A stretch of 12,481 nucleotides of DNA from IMG/VR virus record IMGVR_UViG_2526164665_000018. One strand, given 5' to 3'. Shown one piece after another: positions 1-6,212 of this stretch (position 1 is its first letter; the number at the start of each line of letters is the position of its first letter). The position numbers and the translations under genes are program-made. The notes beneath the pieces were generated by a model. It saw only the letters and a list, made by a program, of their open reading frames with translations. It ran no database searches and had not been told where the DNA came from. This stretch comes from a virus. Its lineage: Duplodnaviria > Heunggongvirae > Uroviricota > Caudoviricetes.

Positions 1-45
1 CCGGAAATCCTGGAGACTAAACTCCCTGAGAAAGAGGTAAACAGG

Positions 46-372
46 ATGACTAAAAATACTCGTTTTTCCCCCGAAGTCCGTCAGCGGGCGATTCGTATGG
101 TTCTGGAAAGTCAGGATGAATATGACTCACAGTGGGCGGCAATTTGTTCCATTGCCCCAAAGATTGGCTGTACGCCGGAGACTCTGCGTGTCTGGGTTCG
201 CCAGCATGAGCGGGATACCGGGGGCGGTGATGGTGGGCTCACCAGTGCTGAACGTCAGCGTCTGAAAGAGCTGGAACGTGAAAATCGTGAACTGCGCCGC
301 AGTAACGATATCCTTCGCCAGGCTTCCGCTTATTTTGCGAAGGCGGAGTTCGACCGCCTCTGGAAAAAATGA
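46..372 (+). CDS. IS3-family transposase OrfA (helix-turn-helix/leucine-zipper part)
   Basis: 108-aa [25 protein letters not shown]... recognised as IS629-type OrfA. It ends in an A6 slippery run (364..369) where the IS3-family -1 frameshift into OrfB occurs. Confidence 0.9.
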
Positions 373-1259
373 TGCCACTGCTGGATAAGCTGCGTGAGCA
401 GTACGGGGTCGGACCGGTATGCAGCGAACTGCATATTGCCCCGTCAACGTATTACCATTGTCAGCAACAGCGACATCATCCGGATAAACGCAGTGCCCGT
501 GCGCAGCACGATGACTGGCTGAAGAAAGAGATACAGCGCGTATACGATGAAAATCACCAGGTATACGGTGTGCGTAAAGTCTGGCGTCAGTTGTTACGGG
601 AAGGTATCAGAGTGGCCAGATGCACTGTGGCACGTCTCATGGCAGTTATGGGACTTGCCGGTGTTCTCCGGGGTAAAAAGGTCCGCACTACCGTCAGCCG
701 GAAAGCCGTTGCCGCATGCGACCGCGTAAACCGTCAGTTCGTGGCAGAACGTCCAGACCAGTTGTGGGTGGCTGATTTTACCTGGGTAAGCACATGGCAG
801 GGCTTCGTTTATGTGGCGTTCATCATTGATGTGTTCGCCGGATACATCGTGGGATGGCAGGTCTCATCATCCATGGAAACAACATTCGTGCTGGATGCAC
901 TGGAGCAGGCGTTGTGGGCCCGTCGGCCGTCCGGCACAATCCATCACAGTGATAAAGGTTCTCAGTATGTATCGCTGGCCTACACGCAGCGGCTTAAGGA
1001 AGCCGGATTACTGGCATCAACAGGGAGTACTGGCGACTCGTATGACAACGCGATGGCTGAGAGCATCAATGGTCTTTACAAAGCGGAGGTAATACACCGT
1101 AATAGCTGGAAAAACCGGACAGAAGTGGAACTGGCCACACTAACGTGGGTGGACTGGTATAACAATCGACGATTGCTGGAAAGGCTGGGCCATATTCCTC
1201 CGGCAGAAGCAGAAAAAGCTTATTATGCTTCCATCGGAAATAATGATCTGGCAGCCTGA
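369..1259 (+). CDS. IS3-family transposase OrfB (DDE catalytic domain), normally expressed as an OrfAB fusion by -1 frameshifting
   Basis: 296-aa ORF overlapping OrfA in the -1 frame, with the typical DDE-transposase layout (...WVADFTWV...HSDKGSQY...YDNAMAES...). Identical in protein sequence to the minus-strand copy at 4909..5799. Confidence 0.9.
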
Positions 1260-1302
1260 GTTCACAGATAAAATACTCTCCAGGAAACCCGGGGCGGTTC
1301 AG

Positions 1303-1569
1303 CGTGATGTTGATCGCGCAGAAACAGATTTACTTATCAACCTGTCAACGCTTACCCAGCGCGGTCTGGCAAAGATGATTGGCTGTCATGAATCGAAGAT
1401 AAGCAGAACGGACTGGAGATTTATTGCTTCGGTCTTGTGTGCTTTCGGAATGGCATCAGACAACAGTCCGATTAGCAGAGCTTTTAAGTATGCGCTTGAT
1501 GGACTCACCAATAAAAAACGCCCGGTGTGCAAGACCGAGCGTTCTGAACAAATCCAGATGGAATTCTGA
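1303..1569 (+). pseudogene. cII: cII transcriptional activator homologue, 5'-truncated by the IS insertion
   Basis: The frame open after the IS end encodes ...GLTNKKRPVCKTERSEQIQMEF, matching the recalled lambda CII C-terminus (..ILTNKKRPAATERSEQIQMEF) and helix-turn-helix region. The first ~8-10 codons are missing. Position immediately upstream of O matches lambda order. Confidence 0.75.
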
Positions 1570-1601: not shown

Positions 1602-2473
1602 ATGACAAATACAGCAAAAATACTCAACTTCGGCAGAGGTAACTTTGCCGAACAGGAGCGTAATGTGGCAGATCTCGATGATGGTTACGCCAGACTATCA
1701 AATATGCTGCTTGAGGCCTATTCAGGCGCAGATCTGACCAAGCGACAGTTTAAAGTGCTGCTTGCCATTCTGCGTAAAACCTATGGGTGGAATAAACCAA
1801 TGGACAGAATCACCGATTCTCAACTTAGCGAGATTACAAAGTTACCTGTCAAACGGTGCAATGAAGCCAAGTTAGAACTCGTCAGAATGAATATTATCAA
1901 GCAGCAAGGCGGCATGTTTGGACCAAATAAAAACATCTCAGAATGGTGCATCCCTCAAAACGAGGGAGGTTCCCCTAAAATGAGGGACATCCCTCAAAAC
2001 AGAGGGACACAAAAGACACTATTACAAAAGAAAAAAGAAAAGATTATTCGTCCGAGAATTCTGGCGAATCCTCTGACCAGCCAGAAAACGATCTTTCTGT
2101 GGTTAAACCGGATGCTGCAATTCAGAGCGGCAGCAAGTGGGGAACAGCAGAAGACCTGACCGCCGCAGAGTGGATGTTTGACATGGTGAAGACCATCGCA
2201 CCATCAGCCAGAAAACCGAATTTTGCAGGGTGGGCTAACGATATCCGCCTGATGCGTGAACGTGACGGACGTAACCACCGCGATATGTGTGTGCTTTTCC
2301 GCTGGGCCTGCCAGGACAACTTCTGGTCCGGTAACGTGCTGAGTCCGGCCAAACTCCGCGACAAGTGGACCCAGCTCGAAATCAACCGTAACAAGCAACA
2401 GGCAGGCGTGACAGCCAGAAAACCAAAACTCGACCTGACAAACACTGACTGGATTTACGGGGTGGATTTATGA
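1602..2473 (+). pseudogene. O: Replication initiator O, frameshifted inside the ori iteron region
   Basis: N-terminal frame (1602..2159) matches recalled lambda O (MTNTAKILNFGRGNFA...). C-terminal frame (open from 1979, first Met at 2099, to 2473) matches the lambda O C-terminus (...SGSKWGTAEDLTAAEWMFDMVKT...GVDL). The two parts are in different frames; total length 872 nt is not a multiple of 3. Confidence 0.75.
1950..2050. repeat. ori-lambda-like origin: three iterons (each an inverted repeat, TCCCTC...GAGGGA) followed by an A/T-rich stretch
   Basis: atccctcaaaacgagggag / gttcccctaaaatgagggac / atccctcaaaacagagggac at 1950..2008, then aaaagacactattacaaaagaaaaaagaaaag. Lambda has four iterons at this position inside O (established knowledge). 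Confidence 0.8.
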
Positions 2474-3171
2474 AAAACATCGCCGCACAGATGGTTAATT
2501 TTGACCGTGAGCAGATGCGTCGGATCGCCAACAACATGCCGGAACAGTACGACGAAAAGCCTCAGGTACAGCAGGTAGCGCAGATCATCAACGGTGTGTT
2601 CAGCCAGTTACTGGCAACTTTCCCGGCGAGCCTGGCTAACCGTGACCAGAACGAACTGAACGAAATCCGCCGCCAGTGGGTTCTGGCTTTCCGGGAAAAC
2701 GGGATCACCACAATGGAACAGGTTAACGCAGGAATGCGCGTAGCCCGTCGGCAGAATCGACCATTTCTGCCATCACCCGGGCAGTTTGTTGCATGGTGCC
2801 GGGAAGAAGCATCCGTTATCGCCGGACTGCCAAACGTCAGCGAGCTGGTTGATATGGTTTACGAGTATTGCCGGAAGCGAGGCCTGTATCCGGATGCGGA
2901 GTCTTATCCGTGGAAATCAAACGCGCACTACTGGCTGGTTACCAACCTGTATCAGAACATGCGGGCCAATGCGCTTACTGATGCGGAATTACGCCGTAAG
3001 GCCGCAGATGAGCTTGTCCATATGACTGCGAGAATTAACCGTGGTGAGGCGCTCCCTGAACCAGTAAAACAACTTCCTGTCATGGGCGGTAGACCTCTAA
3101 ATCGTGCACAGGCTCTGGCGAAGATCGCAGAACTCAAAGCTAAGTTCGGACTGAAAGGAGCAAGTGTATGA
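2470..3171 (+). CDS. P: Replication protein P (DnaB helicase loader)
   Basis: 233-aa ORF MKNIAAQMVNFDREQMRRIANNMPEQYDEK..., near-identical to recalled lambda P. Start overlaps the O stop. Confidence 0.92.
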   Translation: MKNIAAQMVNFDREQMRRIANNMPEQYDEKPQVQQVAQIINGVFSQLLATFPASLANRDQNELNEIRRQWVLAFRENGITTMEQVNAGMRVARRQNRPFLPSPGQFVAWCREEASVIAGLPNVSELVDMVYEYCRKRGLYPDAESYPWKSNAHYWLVTNLYQNMRANALTDAELRRKAADELVHMTARINRGEALPEPVKQLPVMGGRPLNRAQALAKIAELKAKFGLKGASV

Positions 3172-3458
3172 CGGGCAAAGAGGCAATTATTCATTACCTG
3201 GGGACGCATAATAGCTTCTGTGCGCCGGACGTTGCCGCGCTAACAGGCGCAACAGTAACCAGCATAAATCAGGCCGCGGCTAAAATGGCACGGGCAGGTC
3301 TTCTGGTTATCGAAGGTAAGGTCTGGCGAACGGTGTATTACCGGTTTGCTACCAAGGAAGAACGGGAAGGAAAGATGAGCACGAACCTAATTTTTAAGGA
3401 GTGTCGCCAGAGTGCCGCGATGAAACGGGTATTGGCGGTATATGGAGTTAAAAGATGA
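3168..3458 (+). CDS. ren: Ren (Rex-exclusion relief protein)
   Basis: 96-aa ORF MTGKEAIIHYLGTHNSFCAPDVAALTGA..., matching recalled lambda Ren in sequence, length and position after P. Confidence 0.88.
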   Translation: MTGKEAIIHYLGTHNSFCAPDVAALTGATVTSINQAAAKMARAGLLVIEGKVWRTVYYRFATKEEREGKMSTNLIFKECRQSAAMKRVLAVYGVKR

Positions 3459-3538
3459 CCATCTACATCACTGAGCTAATAACAGGCCTGCTGGTAATCG
3501 CAGGCCTTTTTATTTGGGGGAGAGTAAATCGTGGCTGA
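3455..3538 (+). CDS. Candidate 27-aa single-pass membrane peptide (MTIYITELITGLLVIAGLFIWGRVNRG)
   Basis: ATG overlaps the ren stop (ATGA coupling) and the peptide has a hydrophobic core. Too short for the ORF track, so support is only sequence-level. Confidence 0.25.
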   Translation: MTIYITELITGLLVIAGLFIWGRVNRG

Positions 3539-3754
3539 GTTTATGCTCGTCGCACTCAAATGCGTTGGCGTTTGATGGATTCTTCTGACGTTATTTATTG
3601 TTCTGCATAGCTACATTCGTCTTGTGAATGACGGTAAAGACCCATGGTATACGTTGTTTGGCGCTGCATTTGTCTGGGTGATTATCGGTGTTGCGCCTGT
3701 CGCTGTAGCAAAAATGGCGTGGCGTTTTGTGAGTTGAACTGAGGGTAAGTATCG

Positions 3755-4111
3755 ATGGACGAATCAAGAAAGCAGTTTGAGGAATACGTTGCCAAAAAAT
3801 TGAGATTACCATTCGAGATGATAACCGAGGCAAGAAATGGTGATAGGTACTTCGCATTTTCAAGCATGGATATTCGTCACTCCTTAAATGAGTGGTGGAC
3901 TTTATGGCAGGCATCGCGAGCAGCTATTGAACTGGATATCGACTGGCCAGAATCGAATGACGACTTTTGGAAAGATGGTGAAGAAGGTGCTTATGCGATG
4001 GGTTATGAGGATGGGCGTGACAAAACGGTAATTGCAGTAATGAAAGCTATCAGAGCCGCTGGAATTAAAGAGAAGAATTTCGATGAAGCAAACAATATTC
4101 CTCCGAACTAA
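3755..4111 (+). CDS. Hypothetical acidic phage protein (118 aa), accessory gene between ren and ninB
   Basis: Clean ORF with a GAGGG Shine-Dalgarno-like motif ~11 nt upstream of the ATG, rich in Asp/Glu. No family recognised. Lambda has ren and ninB almost adjacent, so this lies in an insert. Confidence 0.6.
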   Translation: MDESRKQFEEYVAKKLRLPFEMITEARNGDRYFAFSSMDIRHSLNEWWTLWQASRAAIELDIDWPESNDDFWKDGEEGAYAMGYEDGRDKTVIAVMKAIRAAGIKEKNFDEANNIPPN

Positions 4112-4493
4112 GCAACAACAGCAAGCCGCAATCAACGCCATCCTCGCAACACCACTCGATAAAGACAAGCCAGTCACCATCCGCATTACTGACTACAAGC
4201 GCAACCTTGACCAGAACGCAAAATTTCACGCGATGCTGGCGGATATCGCACGTCAGGTTCAATGGTGCGATAAGTGGTTAAAACCAGAACAATGGAAGGT
4301 TTTGTTGATTAGCGGTCATGCAGTGGCAACAAAGCAGGAAGCTGATGTTTTGCCCGGCCTTGAAGGCGAATACGTCAACATTCGCGAAAGTAGCGCGCAG
4401 ATGAGTGTGAAGCGTATGGCAAGTCTGATTGAGTACACGACAGCATGGGCTATTGGTCAGGGCGTCAGATTTACCGACAGGAGGTACGAATGA
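4083..4493 (+). CDS. ninB: NinB (Orf-family recombination mediator)
   Basis: 136-aa ORF whose ...[33 protein letters not shown]... matches the recalled lambda NinB pattern (...IVVTIQERNRSLDQNRKLWACLGDVSRQVEW...). Confidence 0.85.
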
Positions 4494-4666
4494 GACGACA
4501 GCGACGAAGTATCACCGACATAATCTGTGAAAACTGCAAATACCTTCCAACGAAACGCTCCAGAAATAAACGCAAGCCAATCCCAAAAGAATCTGACGTA
4601 AAAACCTTCAACTACACGGCTCACCTGTGGGATATCCGGTGGCTAAGACATCGTGCGAGGAAATGA
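4490..4666 (+). CDS. ninE: NinE
   Basis: [58 protein letters not shown] (58 aa) from the ATG at 4490, preceded by AGGAGG, near-identical to recalled lambda NinE. The track ORF 4445..4666 is the same frame extended upstream. Confidence 0.85.
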
Positions 4667-4866
4667 CAATGCTTTTAATTCAACCTGGATTTGGACTTAG
4701 CATCAAAAAAGGCCACATGTTTGGCGAGAAAGAGTCACAACGAAAAATGGTGTCTATCCGGTTGCCATTTATCAGTATTTATTGGCTAAACAGGGAGGCA
4801 ACAAATTATTGGTATACATGCGCCAGAGCAGCATTTAACGACCCTGACTGGTTTGTGAAAAACCAC
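4663..4866 (+). pseudogene. 5' part of a nin-region ORF interrupted by IS629 copy 2
   Basis: ATG at 4663 overlaps the ninE stop. The frame runs into the IS, whose first three bases (tga) create the stop of track ORF 4627..4869. The frame resumes in phase after the IS (see 6213..6383). Confidence 0.4.
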
Positions 4867-4908
4867 TGAACCGCCCCGGGTTTCCTGGAGAGTATTTTAT
4901 CTGTGAAC

Positions 4909-5799
4909 TCAGGCTGCCAGATCATTATTTCCGATGGAAGCATAATAAGCTTTTTCTGCTTCTGCCGGAGGAATATGGCCCAGCCTTTCCAGCAATCGTC
5001 GATTGTTATACCAGTCCACCCACGTTAGTGTGGCCAGTTCCACTTCTGTCCGGTTTTTCCAGCTATTACGGTGTATTACCTCCGCTTTGTAAAGACCATT
5101 GATGCTCTCAGCCATCGCGTTGTCATACGAGTCGCCAGTACTCCCTGTTGATGCCAGTAATCCGGCTTCCTTAAGCCGCTGCGTGTAGGCCAGCGATACA
5201 TACTGAGAACCTTTATCACTGTGATGGATTGTGCCGGACGGCCGACGGGCCCACAACGCCTGCTCCAGTGCATCCAGCACGAATGTTGTTTCCATGGATG
5301 ATGAGACCTGCCATCCCACGATGTATCCGGCGAACACATCAATGATGAACGCCACATAAACGAAGCCCTGCCATGTGCTTACCCAGGTAAAATCAGCCAC
5401 CCACAACTGGTCTGGACGTTCTGCCACGAACTGACGGTTTACGCGGTCGCATGCGGCAACGGCTTTCCGGCTGACGGTAGTGCGGACCTTTTTACCCCGG
5501 AGAACACCGGCAAGTCCCATAACTGCCATGAGACGTGCCACAGTGCATCTGGCCACTCTGATACCTTCCCGTAACAACTGACGCCAGACTTTACGCACAC
5601 CGTATACCTGGTGATTTTCATCGTATACGCGCTGTATCTCTTTCTTCAGCCAGTCATCGTGCTGCGCACGGGCACTGCGTTTATCCGGATGATGTCGCTG
5701 TTGCTGACAATGGTAATACGTTGACGGGGCAATATGCAGTTCGCTGCATACCGGTCCGACCCCGTACTGCTCACGCAGCTTATCCAGCAGTGGCATCAT
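4909..5799 (-). CDS. IS3-family transposase OrfB (copy 2)
   Basis: 296-aa ORF identical to 369..1259. Confidence 0.9.
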
Positions 5800-6122
5800 T
5801 TTTTCCAGAGGCGGTCGAACTCCGCCTTCGCAAAATAAGCGGAAGCCTGGCGAAGGATATCGTTACTGCGGCGCAGTTCACGATTTTCACGTTCCAGCTC
5901 TTTCAGACGCTGACGTTCAGCACTGGTGAGCCCACCATCACCGCCCCCGGTATCCCGCTCATGCTGGCGAACCCAGACACGCAGAGTCTCCGGCGTACAG
6001 CCAATCTTTGGGGCAATGGAACAAATTGCCGCCCACTGTGAGTCATATTCATCCTGACTTTCCAGAACCATACGAATCGCCCGCTGACGGACTTCGGGGG
6101 AAAAACGAGTATTTTTAGTCAT
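5796..6122 (-). CDS. IS3-family transposase OrfA (copy 2)
   Basis: 108-aa ORF identical to 46..372. Confidence 0.9.
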
Positions 6123-6212
6123 CCTGTTTACCTCTTTCTCAGGGAGTTTAGTCTCCAGGATTTCCGGGGCGGTTCACACCACGCAGTTCGTCAGGCAAAG
6201 AGAAAGGCCAAT

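What the first reader, a model, noticed from the sequence alone, without database searches (positions are those of the whole stretch)
3455..4111. About 620-bp accessory insert between ren and ninB with small membrane peptides and an acidic 118-aa protein
In lambda, ren and ninB are separated by only a few tens of bp (recalled). Here the gap holds a 27-aa hydrophobic peptide coupled to the ren stop (3455..3538), a second possible hydrophobic peptide with only a GTG/TTG start (about 3624..3737), and an acidic 118-aa ORF with no recognisable family. Ren is itself an exclusion-related gene, and this region is a known site of variable gene content in lambdoid phages. The insert is a candidate defence or anti-defence module.
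Basis: partly seen in the sequence, partly recalled or inferred. Interest (0 to 1): 0.55.

Follow-up and report, generated by a model that had tools for sequence, protein, structure and literature searches.

The report
Mosaic nin-region cassette after terminator tR2
The ren-ninB gap holds lambda's own tR2 terminator with its NinA reading frame, followed by a common swappable two-gene cassette: a small membrane-protein gene broken by a stop codon and an intact acidic protein of a large, uncharacterised phage family. This is ordinary mosaic phage architecture, not a new system.

Summary
The ORFs and the 624-bp ren-ninB gap are real (lambda has 73 bp). The interval has three parts.

1. 3455-3538 is not insert. 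It is lambda's own ninA frame wrapped around terminator tR2. It matches lambda up to 3524, apart from one substitution at 3469.
2. The 37-aa "peptide" is the tail of a 68-codon two-helix membrane-protein gene (phrog_1165, GTG 3531). An in-frame TGA at 3573-3575 breaks it. The break is seen only in this H-19B-type lineage.
3. The 118-aa ORF is intact and acidic (pI 4.7). It belongs to Pfam PF26207 (Phage_phiTE_015) and phrog_343. This family is very large, has no known function, and gives no PDB sequence or fold match.

Among 114 tR2-bearing viral contigs, 61 have ninB directly after tR2. The other 53 carry 0.2-1.3 kb of shuffled small genes: PF26207, phrog_1165, DUF7301, Lar.

No promoter-like site lies in the interval, so expression would need antiterminated pR transcription. 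That argues against a lysogen-expressed defence gene. Anti-defence stays an untested guess. The prophage here is also decayed (IS insertions, frameshifted O).

Verdict: known, ordinary nin-region mosaicism; low interest.

The parts
3168..3458 (+). ren (96 aa). Its TGA stop overlaps the ninA ATG.
   Evidence: ORF list. phrog_142 Ren-like exclusion protein, E=3.6e-42. Annotated as ren in H-19B and lambda.
3455..3538 (+). ninA reading frame (27 aa). It runs through tR2 and has an SD (GGAG) 7 nt upstream.
   Evidence: phrog_5907, E=1.3e-18. Annotated ninA in HK620. Matches lambda to 3524 except one substitution at 3469. A NinA initiation site upstream of lambda tR2 is described in PMC4824070. The frame persists in phages that carry a different hairpin.
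3484..3515 (+). tR2 intrinsic terminator: 8-bp GC-rich stem, 8-nt loop, T-tract.
   Evidence: Terminator scan. RNA fold -16.9 kcal/mol. Annotated tR2/terminator in HK620 and mEp235. Exact in 67 of 80 related loci. A structurally equivalent but different hairpin sits at the same place in 5 of the 9 loci that lack an exact tR2.
3516..3524 (+). GGGGGAGAG: a shared SD-like tail of the tR2 block and the mosaic junction. Sequences diverge immediately after it.
   Evidence: At least 8 alternative downstream sequences follow this motif in 71 loci. Lambda diverges from the window at 3525.
3525..4082 (+). Net insert relative to lambda (about 555 bp). GC is 42-46%, against 50-57% in P/ren.
   Evidence: Alignments. 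Composition profile.
3531..3737 (+). phrog_1165 gene: a 68-codon small protein with two predicted transmembrane helices. Here it is a pseudogene, with an in-frame TGA at 3573-3575 (codon 15).
   Evidence: phrog_1165 E=5.4e-20, covering only profile positions 33-68. Translations. Intact in about 45 loci and broken only in window/H-19B/L007. dN/dS is 0.36 between the two allele classes. Two hydrophobic spans. The exact TGA allele occurs in 116 E. coli genomes, where PGAP calls no gene.
3624..3737 (+). It is the remnant 3' part of the broken phrog_1165 gene, with no SD upstream.
3755..4111 (+). PF26207 (Phage_phiTE_015) / phrog_343 gene, 118 aa, acidic, intact. SD GAGGG lies 9-10 nt upstream. The last 29 nt overlap ninB.
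   Evidence: Family assignment. Conserved motifs SRxQFExW, WQASRAAIE and AIRAAGIKxK. pI 4.67. The C-terminal 11-aa tail changes with the ninB allele. AF2 pLDDT 70-73.
4083..4493 (+). ninB (Orf-family recombination mediator); right border of the slot.
   Evidence: Pfam NinB E=4.2e-54.

Best explanation
The interval is the start of the nin region of an H-19B-type (Stx1) lambdoid prophage. It has three parts.

(1) 3455-3524 is the conserved tR2 block. It is an intrinsic terminator embedded in the short ninA frame, which starts on the ren stop (ATGA). It ends in GGGGGAGAG, which serves as ribosome-binding site for whatever gene follows.

(2) After that junction sits a swappable cassette. The first gene (phrog_1165, a 68-aa protein with two predicted membrane helices) is inactivated here by a nonsense codon.

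(3) The second gene encodes an intact 118-aa acidic protein of the very large, uncharacterised family PF26207/phrog_343. Its end reads into ninB.

Shown:
- the identities of the three parts;
- the junction after GGGGGAGAG;
- the polymorphism of the slot;
- the pseudogene status of the first cassette gene;
- membership of the 118-aa protein in PF26207/phrog_343.

Inferred:
- The cassette has no promoter-like site of its own and lies behind tR2. It would therefore be transcribed only as delayed-early message from pR after N antitermination, that is, during lytic growth and not in the lysogen.
- Ribosomes on ren/ninA may modulate tR2.
- The PF26207 protein is a non-essential accessory factor. My best guess (about 0.3) is that it acts by binding a host or phage protein involved in DNA transactions, as host takeover or counter-defence. 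The basis is that the family is acidic (median pI about 4.85), has a small helical core with a hypervariable segment and a disordered acidic loop, and keeps company with recombination and anti-restriction genes.
- In this particular prophage the cassette is probably silent, because the element is decayed.

Confidence is about 0.85 for the anatomy and evolution and about 0.3 for the function.
For: - Identity to H-19B (99.6%) and Stx1a phage 11KH263 (100%).
- The tR2/ninA block matches lambda except for one substitution. It is annotated as such in HK620 and mEp235. The hairpin and T-tract are detected.
- An alternative hairpin occupies the same place inside the same frame in other phages.
- Sequences diverge right after GGGGGAGAG.
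- In 80 of 80 loci the PF26207 gene lies between ninA/tR2 and ninB, whatever the replication module or ninB allele.
- In the unbiased tR2 sample the slot is empty in 61 contigs and filled in 53. PF26207 is present in 36, phrog_1165 in 27, both in 20.
- The nonsense codon is restricted to this lineage. phrog_1165 is under purifying selection elsewhere.
- PF26207 has at least 4473 clusters, all small and unannotated. In six of seven contexts examined (five looked up plus the E. coli loci) it lies in the early-right operon after the replication genes, including a Pseudomonas prophage.
- No promoter-like site.
- The family is acidic.
- Ribosome proximity represses tR2, and a NinA start lies upstream of it (PMC4824070).
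- nin genes are a non-essential mosaic pool of 30-50 genes (PMC5630979).
- Prophage decay.
Against: - No experiment or homology assigns a function to PF26207 or phrog_1165.
- The promoter scan is a strict consensus scan and could miss a weak or non-sigma-70 promoter.
- Acidity and neighbourhood are weak indicators.
- Translation of ninA is not shown here.
- UGA read-through or re-initiation in the broken gene cannot be excluded from sequence alone.
Confidence: 0.7

Rival explanations
1. Counter-defence module. The acidic PF26207 protein would be an early inhibitor of a host immune nuclease, for example by anti-restriction or DNA/protein mimicry. The tR2-ninB slot would be a counter-defence hotspot.
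For: - Acidic protein and acidic family.
- The conserved-but-disordered acidic/aromatic loop and the hypervariable, shuffled segments suggest a variable binding partner.
- The same slot holds a Lar-family restriction-alleviation gene next to PF26207 in O157-type prophages. An unrelated metagenomic phage has Lar three genes upstream of PF26207.
- Delayed-early timing fits this role.
Against: - No sequence or fold similarity to Ocr, ArdA, Lar, Gam or any solved protein.
- The acidic loop is specific to one subfamily and is not conserved family-wide.
- Lar co-occurs in only 6 of 114 tR2 contigs.
- Small acidic proteins are common in phage early regions.
Confidence: 0.2
2. Replication/recombination accessory factor. 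PF26207 would work with the phage replisome or with NinB/Orf-type recombination functions, for example by binding SSB, DnaB or recombination mediators.
For: - Conserved position directly downstream of O/P, DnaB or DnaC-type genes and upstream of NinB/NinG. This holds from Escherichia to Pseudomonas.
- nin regions are rich in recombination genes (NinB, NinG, RusA, YbcO).
Against: - PF26207 alleles assort freely with three different replication modules and with different ninB alleles.
- 78 of 114 tR2-bearing phages lack it.
- Lambda lacks it.
- One context (L089) is not next to replication genes.
Confidence: 0.15
3. Prophage-expressed defence or superinfection-exclusion module. Small membrane peptides plus the 118-aa protein would protect the lysogen.
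For: - ren next door is exclusion-related.
- Small membrane proteins can mediate exclusion.
- The site is variable.
Against: - No PADLOC hit.
- No promoter-like site, and a location behind tR2 in the lytic operon.
- The membrane-protein gene is broken by a nonsense codon in this whole lineage, in 116 E. coli genomes.
- 'NinA' is the terminator frame that lambda also has.
Confidence: 0.04
4. Functionally inert filler. The cassette would persist only because its conserved ends (the tR2 block, the WQASRAAIE and IRAAGIKVK-coding DNA, the ninB 5' end) act as recombination linkers.
For: - Module shuffling occurs exactly at conserved motifs.
- One of the two genes is already dead here.
- nin genes are dispensable in the laboratory (PMC5630979).
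Against: - PF26207 keeps invariant residues at 25-50% identity across genera and at least 4473 clusters.
- phrog_1165 has dN/dS of 0.36.
- Both facts indicate selection on the proteins.
Confidence: 0.08

Closest known systems
Lambda tR2 terminator with the ninA frame (also annotated in P22 and HK620)
   Same: Same sequence to 3524 apart from one substitution. Same position after ren or P. Same ATGA coupling. Same hairpin and T-tract.
   Different: The frame ends differently. In lambda the sequence after GGGGGAGAG leads straight into ninB. Here it runs into the cassette (27 aa, stop at 3536-3538).
Pfam PF26207 Phage_phiTE_015 / PHROG 343 (function unknown)
   Same: Full-length HMM match and all family-invariant residues. 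Typical size. Typical place in the early-right operon.
   Different: - Carries the 'YVAKKL...WWTL' middle-segment allele and the acidic 'LDIDWPESNDDFWKDGEEGAYAMGYEDG' loop variant.
- Has an 11-aa tail created by overlap with ninB.
- RefSeq annotates it as only 81 aa, from Met38.
PHROG 1165 small two-helix membrane protein (mEp213, HK620, mEp235, many prophages)
   Same: 94-97% identical to intact alleles. Same position right after tR2, with a GTG start behind GGGGGAGAG.
   Different: Nonsense codon at codon 15, so at most a 14-aa N-terminal peptide or an SD-less 37-aa remnant could be made.
nin-region mosaic gene pool of lambdoid phages (Juhala et al. 2000 and Casjens et al. 2004, as cited in PMC5630979)
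   Same: Tightly packed, overlapping, non-essential small genes exchanged between phages at gene boundaries.
   Different: Nothing essential. This is one more combination from that pool.
Lar (Rac prophage) and other small phage anti-restriction proteins
   Same: Small early proteins. Lar occupies the same slot in related prophages.
   Different: No sequence or fold similarity. PF26207 lacks the Lar zinc-ribbon motif, apart from N-terminal CxxCxGxG extensions on a few distant members.

Membership tests
Lambda-type tR2 intrinsic terminator / ninA frame | GC-rich hairpin followed by a T/U-tract | tested here: met
   8-bp stem (6 GC), 8-nt loop, TTTTTATTT. Folded energy -16.9 kcal/mol, z=-2.1.
Lambda-type tR2 intrinsic terminator / ninA frame | Sequence identity with lambda tR2 and position between ren/P and the nin genes | tested here: met
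   Window 3440-3524 matches lambda with one substitution at 3469; hairpin and T-tract identical. Annotated tR2 in HK620.
Lambda-type tR2 intrinsic terminator / ninA frame | Short ORF starting on the upstream stop codon and reading through the hairpin | tested here: met
   ATGA at 3455-3458. The frame is retained with three unrelated upstream genes and with an alternative hairpin.
Lambda-type tR2 intrinsic terminator / ninA frame | Termination in vivo, relieved by N or by ribosomes | not testable with these tools
   Known for lambda tR2 only from the literature (PMC4824070).
PF26207 Phage_phiTE_015 / phrog_343 | Significant profile match over the full length | tested here: met
   phrog_343 E=5.6e-31, residues 1-115. 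All 220 homologues, including a 98%-identical one, carry precomputed PF26207. The model is absent from the local Pfam copy.
PF26207 Phage_phiTE_015 / phrog_343 | Family-invariant residues (R5, F8, E9, W48, W51, S54, R55, G103, K105/K107) | tested here: met
   Alignments A5 and A6.
PF26207 Phage_phiTE_015 / phrog_343 | Known biochemical function | not testable with these tools
   No function is recorded in Pfam, PHROGs, NCBIfam or source names. No paper was found.
phrog_1165 small membrane protein | Profile match | tested here: met
   E=5.4e-20, but only to profile positions 33-68.
phrog_1165 small membrane protein | Intact reading frame of about 68 codons with two hydrophobic helices | tested here: not met
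   TGA at codon 15 (3573-3575) in the window. About 45 relatives are intact.
Known anti-phage defence systems (PADLOC) | Profile match to a defence protein | tested here: not met
   No hit at E<=0.1 for any of the four proteins.
Moron / lysogen-expressed accessory gene | Own promoter (and usually terminator) allowing expression from the repressed prophage | tested here: not met
   0 promoter-like sites in 3100-4500 on either strand. The only terminator is tR2, upstream of the cassette. This is a consensus scan only.
Known anti-restriction / DNA-mimic proteins (Ocr, ArdA, Lar, Gam ...) | Sequence or fold similarity to a characterised member | tested here: not met
Known anti-restriction / DNA-mimic proteins (Ocr, ArdA, Lar, Gam ...) | Strong net negative charge | tested here: met
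   pI 4.67, charge -8.4. Family median pI about 4.85. This feature is weak and non-specific.

The most novel reading that the evidence does not exclude
PF26207 (Phage_phiTE_015) would be a widespread, modular family of delayed-early counter-defence or host-takeover proteins. Its shuffled hypervariable segments would track variable host targets. The tR2-ninB junction of lambdoid phages would be a dedicated counter-defence slot, shared with Lar.
Probability: 0.15. Interest if true: 0.5.

Novelty: already known. Interest (0 to 1): 0.2.

Why it matters
It matters little as a discovery. The sequence is 99.6-100% identical to published Stx1 phages. Every part belongs to a catalogued element (tR2/ninA) or family (phrog_1165, PF26207/phrog_343), and nin-region mosaicism has long been described.

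There is some practical value:
- RefSeq misses the broken phrog_1165 gene in the prophage examined (E2865).
- RefSeq truncates the PF26207 protein to 81 aa there.
- PF26207 is a very large family (at least 4473 clusters) of temperate-phage early proteins with no function. That makes it a reasonable candidate for functional screens.
- The tR2-ninB junction is a well-defined natural cassette site.

Tried and rejected
- **Family scans.** Pfam, NCBIfam and PADLOC scans of all ORFs gave nothing for the three small ORFs.
- **RNA families.** An Rfam scan of the whole window found no RNA family in 3455-4111. The only hit there is a chance-level one on the minus strand (E=0.71).
- **Antisense ORFs.** The 107-aa ORF at 3591-3914 has no PHROG hit and is treated as spurious. 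The smaller antisense ORFs were not examined.
- **PDB sequence profile search.** Nothing.
- **Literature.** Searches for PF26207, phiTE_015, phrog_343 and the WQASRAAIE motif found no functional study. Searches for nin-region anti-defence work and an accessory-gene screen paper did not mention this family.
- **Partner by allele association.** PF26207 alleles do not track the replication module or the ninB allele. They assort freely, so no partner could be inferred.

Full report
**Source and overall context.** The window matches Stx1a-converting phage 11KH263 (100%) and phage H-19B (99.6%) across 3400-4150. The local gene order is P (2470-3171), ren (3168-3458), the interval in question, ninB (4083-4493) and ninE. 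In lambda, ren ends at 40570 and NinB starts at 40644, a 73-bp gap. Here the gap is 624 bp.

**Part 1: 3455-3538 is backbone, not insert.** The 27-aa ORF begins on the ren stop (ATGA). It matches phrog_5907 and is annotated ninA in HK620.
- It encloses an intrinsic terminator: stem 3484-3507 with a T-tract to 3515, folding at -16.9 kcal/mol. The equivalent feature is annotated tR2 in HK620 and as a rho-independent terminator in mEp235.
- The window matches lambda from 3440 through 3524, apart from one substitution at 3469. It diverges only after GGGGGAGAG.
- The same block follows a DnaB-type helicase gene instead of ren in mEp213, mEp235 and HK620.
- The hairpin is exact in 67 of 80 related loci. 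At least eight different sequences follow the GGGGGAGAG motif, so this is a mosaic junction.
- Nine of the 80 loci lack the tR2 hairpin. In five of them that I read, a different GC hairpin with a T-tract occupies the same place inside the same frame. The peptide changes from GLLVIAGLFIW to GAIYTVALFYW. What is conserved is therefore a terminator inside a translated leader.
- Li et al. (PMC4824070) describe the NinA initiation site upstream of lambda tR2. They show that nearby ribosomes repress tR2.
- The peptide's hydrophobicity probably reflects, at least in part, the T-rich tract coding for Phe, Ile and Trp (inference).

**Part 2: the 37-aa GTG ORF is a gene fragment.**
- It matches only positions 33-68 of phrog_1165.
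- In mEp213, HK620 and about 45 other loci, a 68-codon ORF starts at the GTG six bases after GGGGGAGAG. It encodes two hydrophobic helices.
- In the window, H-19B and one identical contig, codon 15 is TGA (3573-3575). Close relatives have GGA there.
- Two allele classes differ by about 40% in protein sequence, with dN/dS of 0.36. The intact gene is therefore under purifying selection.
- The exact TGA allele is present in 116 complete E. coli genomes, for example O26:H11 11368. PGAP calls no gene there.
- No Shine-Dalgarno sequence precedes GTG 3624.

**Part 3: the 118-aa ORF is real and belongs to a catalogued family.**
- It hits phrog_343 at E=5.6e-31. All 220 close homologues carry PF26207, whose name is Phage_phiTE_015. 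PGAP labels a paralogue 'phiTE_015 family protein'.
- A profile search finds 591 representatives at 50% identity and at least 4473 clusters at 90% identity. All are small and unannotated.
- Invariant residues define the motifs SRxQFExW, WxxWQASRAA and AIxAAGxKVK. Between these motifs the sequences are hypervariable. At least five N-terminal classes and at least five C-terminal classes are shuffled.
- The N-terminal motif supports the start at 3755 (SD GAGGG). RefSeq's 81-aa call from Met38 is too short.
- The last 11 residues are encoded by the overlap with ninB. They change with the ninB allele, and Lar carries a closely similar tail in O157-type prophages.
- The protein is acidic (pI 4.67), as is the family (median about 4.85).
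- AF2 gives a helical core with a low-confidence acidic loop, residues about 57-84.
- There is no match to solved structures or to annotated viral models.

**The slot.**
- In 80 of 80 loci found through the protein, the gene lies between ninA/tR2 and ninB. This holds with lambda-type P+ren or with either of two helicase types, and with different ninB alleles. Phrog_1165, DUF7301-like genes, unknown DNA or DUF7301+Lar may sit alongside.
- In an unbiased sample of 114 tR2-bearing viral contigs, 61 have ninB directly after tR2 (the lambda state) and 53 carry 0.2-1.3 kb.
- In that sample PF26207 occurs in 36 contigs, phrog_1165 in 27 and both together in 20.
- The 118-aa gene's DNA is found in 668 of 5426 complete E. 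coli genomes.
- More distant members lie in the same early-right, post-replication position in Pseudomonas and other prophages. One lies near Lar and an HNH gene in a metagenomic phage.
- The insert has lower GC (42-46%) than P/ren (50-57%).
- This fits the published picture of the nin region as a pool of 30-50 non-essential, recombining small genes (PMC5630979).

**Expression and function.**
- No sigma-70-like promoter is detected in 3100-4500 on either strand, and the cassette lies behind tR2. It should therefore be delayed-early and N-dependent.
- This argues against a lysogen-expressed defence gene, as does the absence of PADLOC hits.
- Function remains unassigned. My preferred guess is a non-essential protein-binding factor acting on host or phage DNA-transaction proteins. 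Counter-defence and a recombination/replication accessory role are the main sub-options. All of these are inference.

**State of this prophage.**
- Two identical IS3-family copies in inverted orientation (1-1302 and 4866-6167) bracket cII'-O-P-ren-cassette-ninB-ninE.
- O carries a 67-bp deletion that removes three ori iterons and shifts the frame. PGAP marks it 'frameshifted' in strain E2865.
- In E2865, which matches the window at every segment compared, no N, cI or cro is annotated between a truncated sieB and the left IS. The IS lies where they would be, so they, and with them pR, appear to be missing.
- The cassette is therefore probably silent in this copy.

**Verdict.** This is an accurately spotted but ordinary piece of lambdoid mosaicism. 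It consists of known elements, one of which is a pseudogene. The anti-defence idea is untested and weakly motivated.

Noticed in passing
window 1-1302 (+) and 4866-6167 (-): Two 100%-identical IS3-family copies (orfA/orfB with the ALIL frameshift pseudoknot) lie in inverted orientation. They bracket cII'-O-P-ren-cassette-ninB-ninE. The left copy runs off the window. The right copy cuts an 80-aa ORF (4627-4869).
   Followed up: partly
window 1602-2473 (deletion near 1988): The replication gene O has a 67-bp deletion relative to H-19B. It removes 3 of 6 ori iterons and shifts the frame, giving ORFs 1602-2159 and 2099-2473. PGAP marks the same gene 'frameshifted' in strain E2865.
   Followed up: yes
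window 1225-1569; locus L091 1374-3170: cII lacks its first ~5 codons because of the IS. In strain E2865, which matches the window at every segment compared, no N, cI or cro is annotated between a truncated sieB and the IS. They, and with them pR, appear to be missing, so the prophage is a decayed remnant. The IS-cII junction occurs in 32 complete E. coli genomes.
   Followed up: partly
L091 5467-5712 (= window 3866-4111); L001 (H-19B AF034975): RefSeq annotates the PF26207 protein as 81 aa from internal Met38. The 1998 H-19B record annotates nothing between ren and nin orf-58-A, not even ninB. It differs from the window by small indels that look like old sequencing errors.
   Followed up: partly
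L012 2704-2790, L013 2309-2400 and similar loci: An alternative ninA/tR2 allele. The first 30 nt of the frame are the same (near-identical in L040), but a completely different GC hairpin (GGGGCTA...TAGCCCC) plus T-tract sits at the same position. This amounts to a natural 'compensatory' replacement of the terminator inside the frame.
   Followed up: partly
proteins P0131, P0174, P0252; locus L085 upstream of 3001: Some PF26207 members carry an N-terminal extension of about 35 aa with a CxxCxGxG...CDC zinc-ribbon-like motif. It is unclear whether these are true fusions or upstream ORFs read through.
   Followed up: no
window 4083-4111; L005 3237-3280: The C-terminal tails of the gene preceding ninB are encoded out of frame by the ninB 5' end. 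As a result PF26207 proteins and Lar carry closely similar tails ('EANIHASQRSNQK' and 'EANLSASQRSNQK') when they abut the same ninB allele.
   Followed up: yes
window 11616-11820 (+): Sub-threshold Rfam match to sRNA STnc100 (41.4 bits against a gathering score of 47, E=2.8e-6). It ends in a terminator-like hairpin. Weak SorX and asX2 hits overlap it.
   Followed up: no
L005 2067-3280 (E. coli NCCP 13946 prophage): In O157-type Stx prophages the same slot reads: helicase, an 89-aa ORF, PF26207 (92 aa), DUF7301, Lar-family restriction alleviation protein, ninB. This is the fullest version of the cassette site seen.
   Followed up: partly
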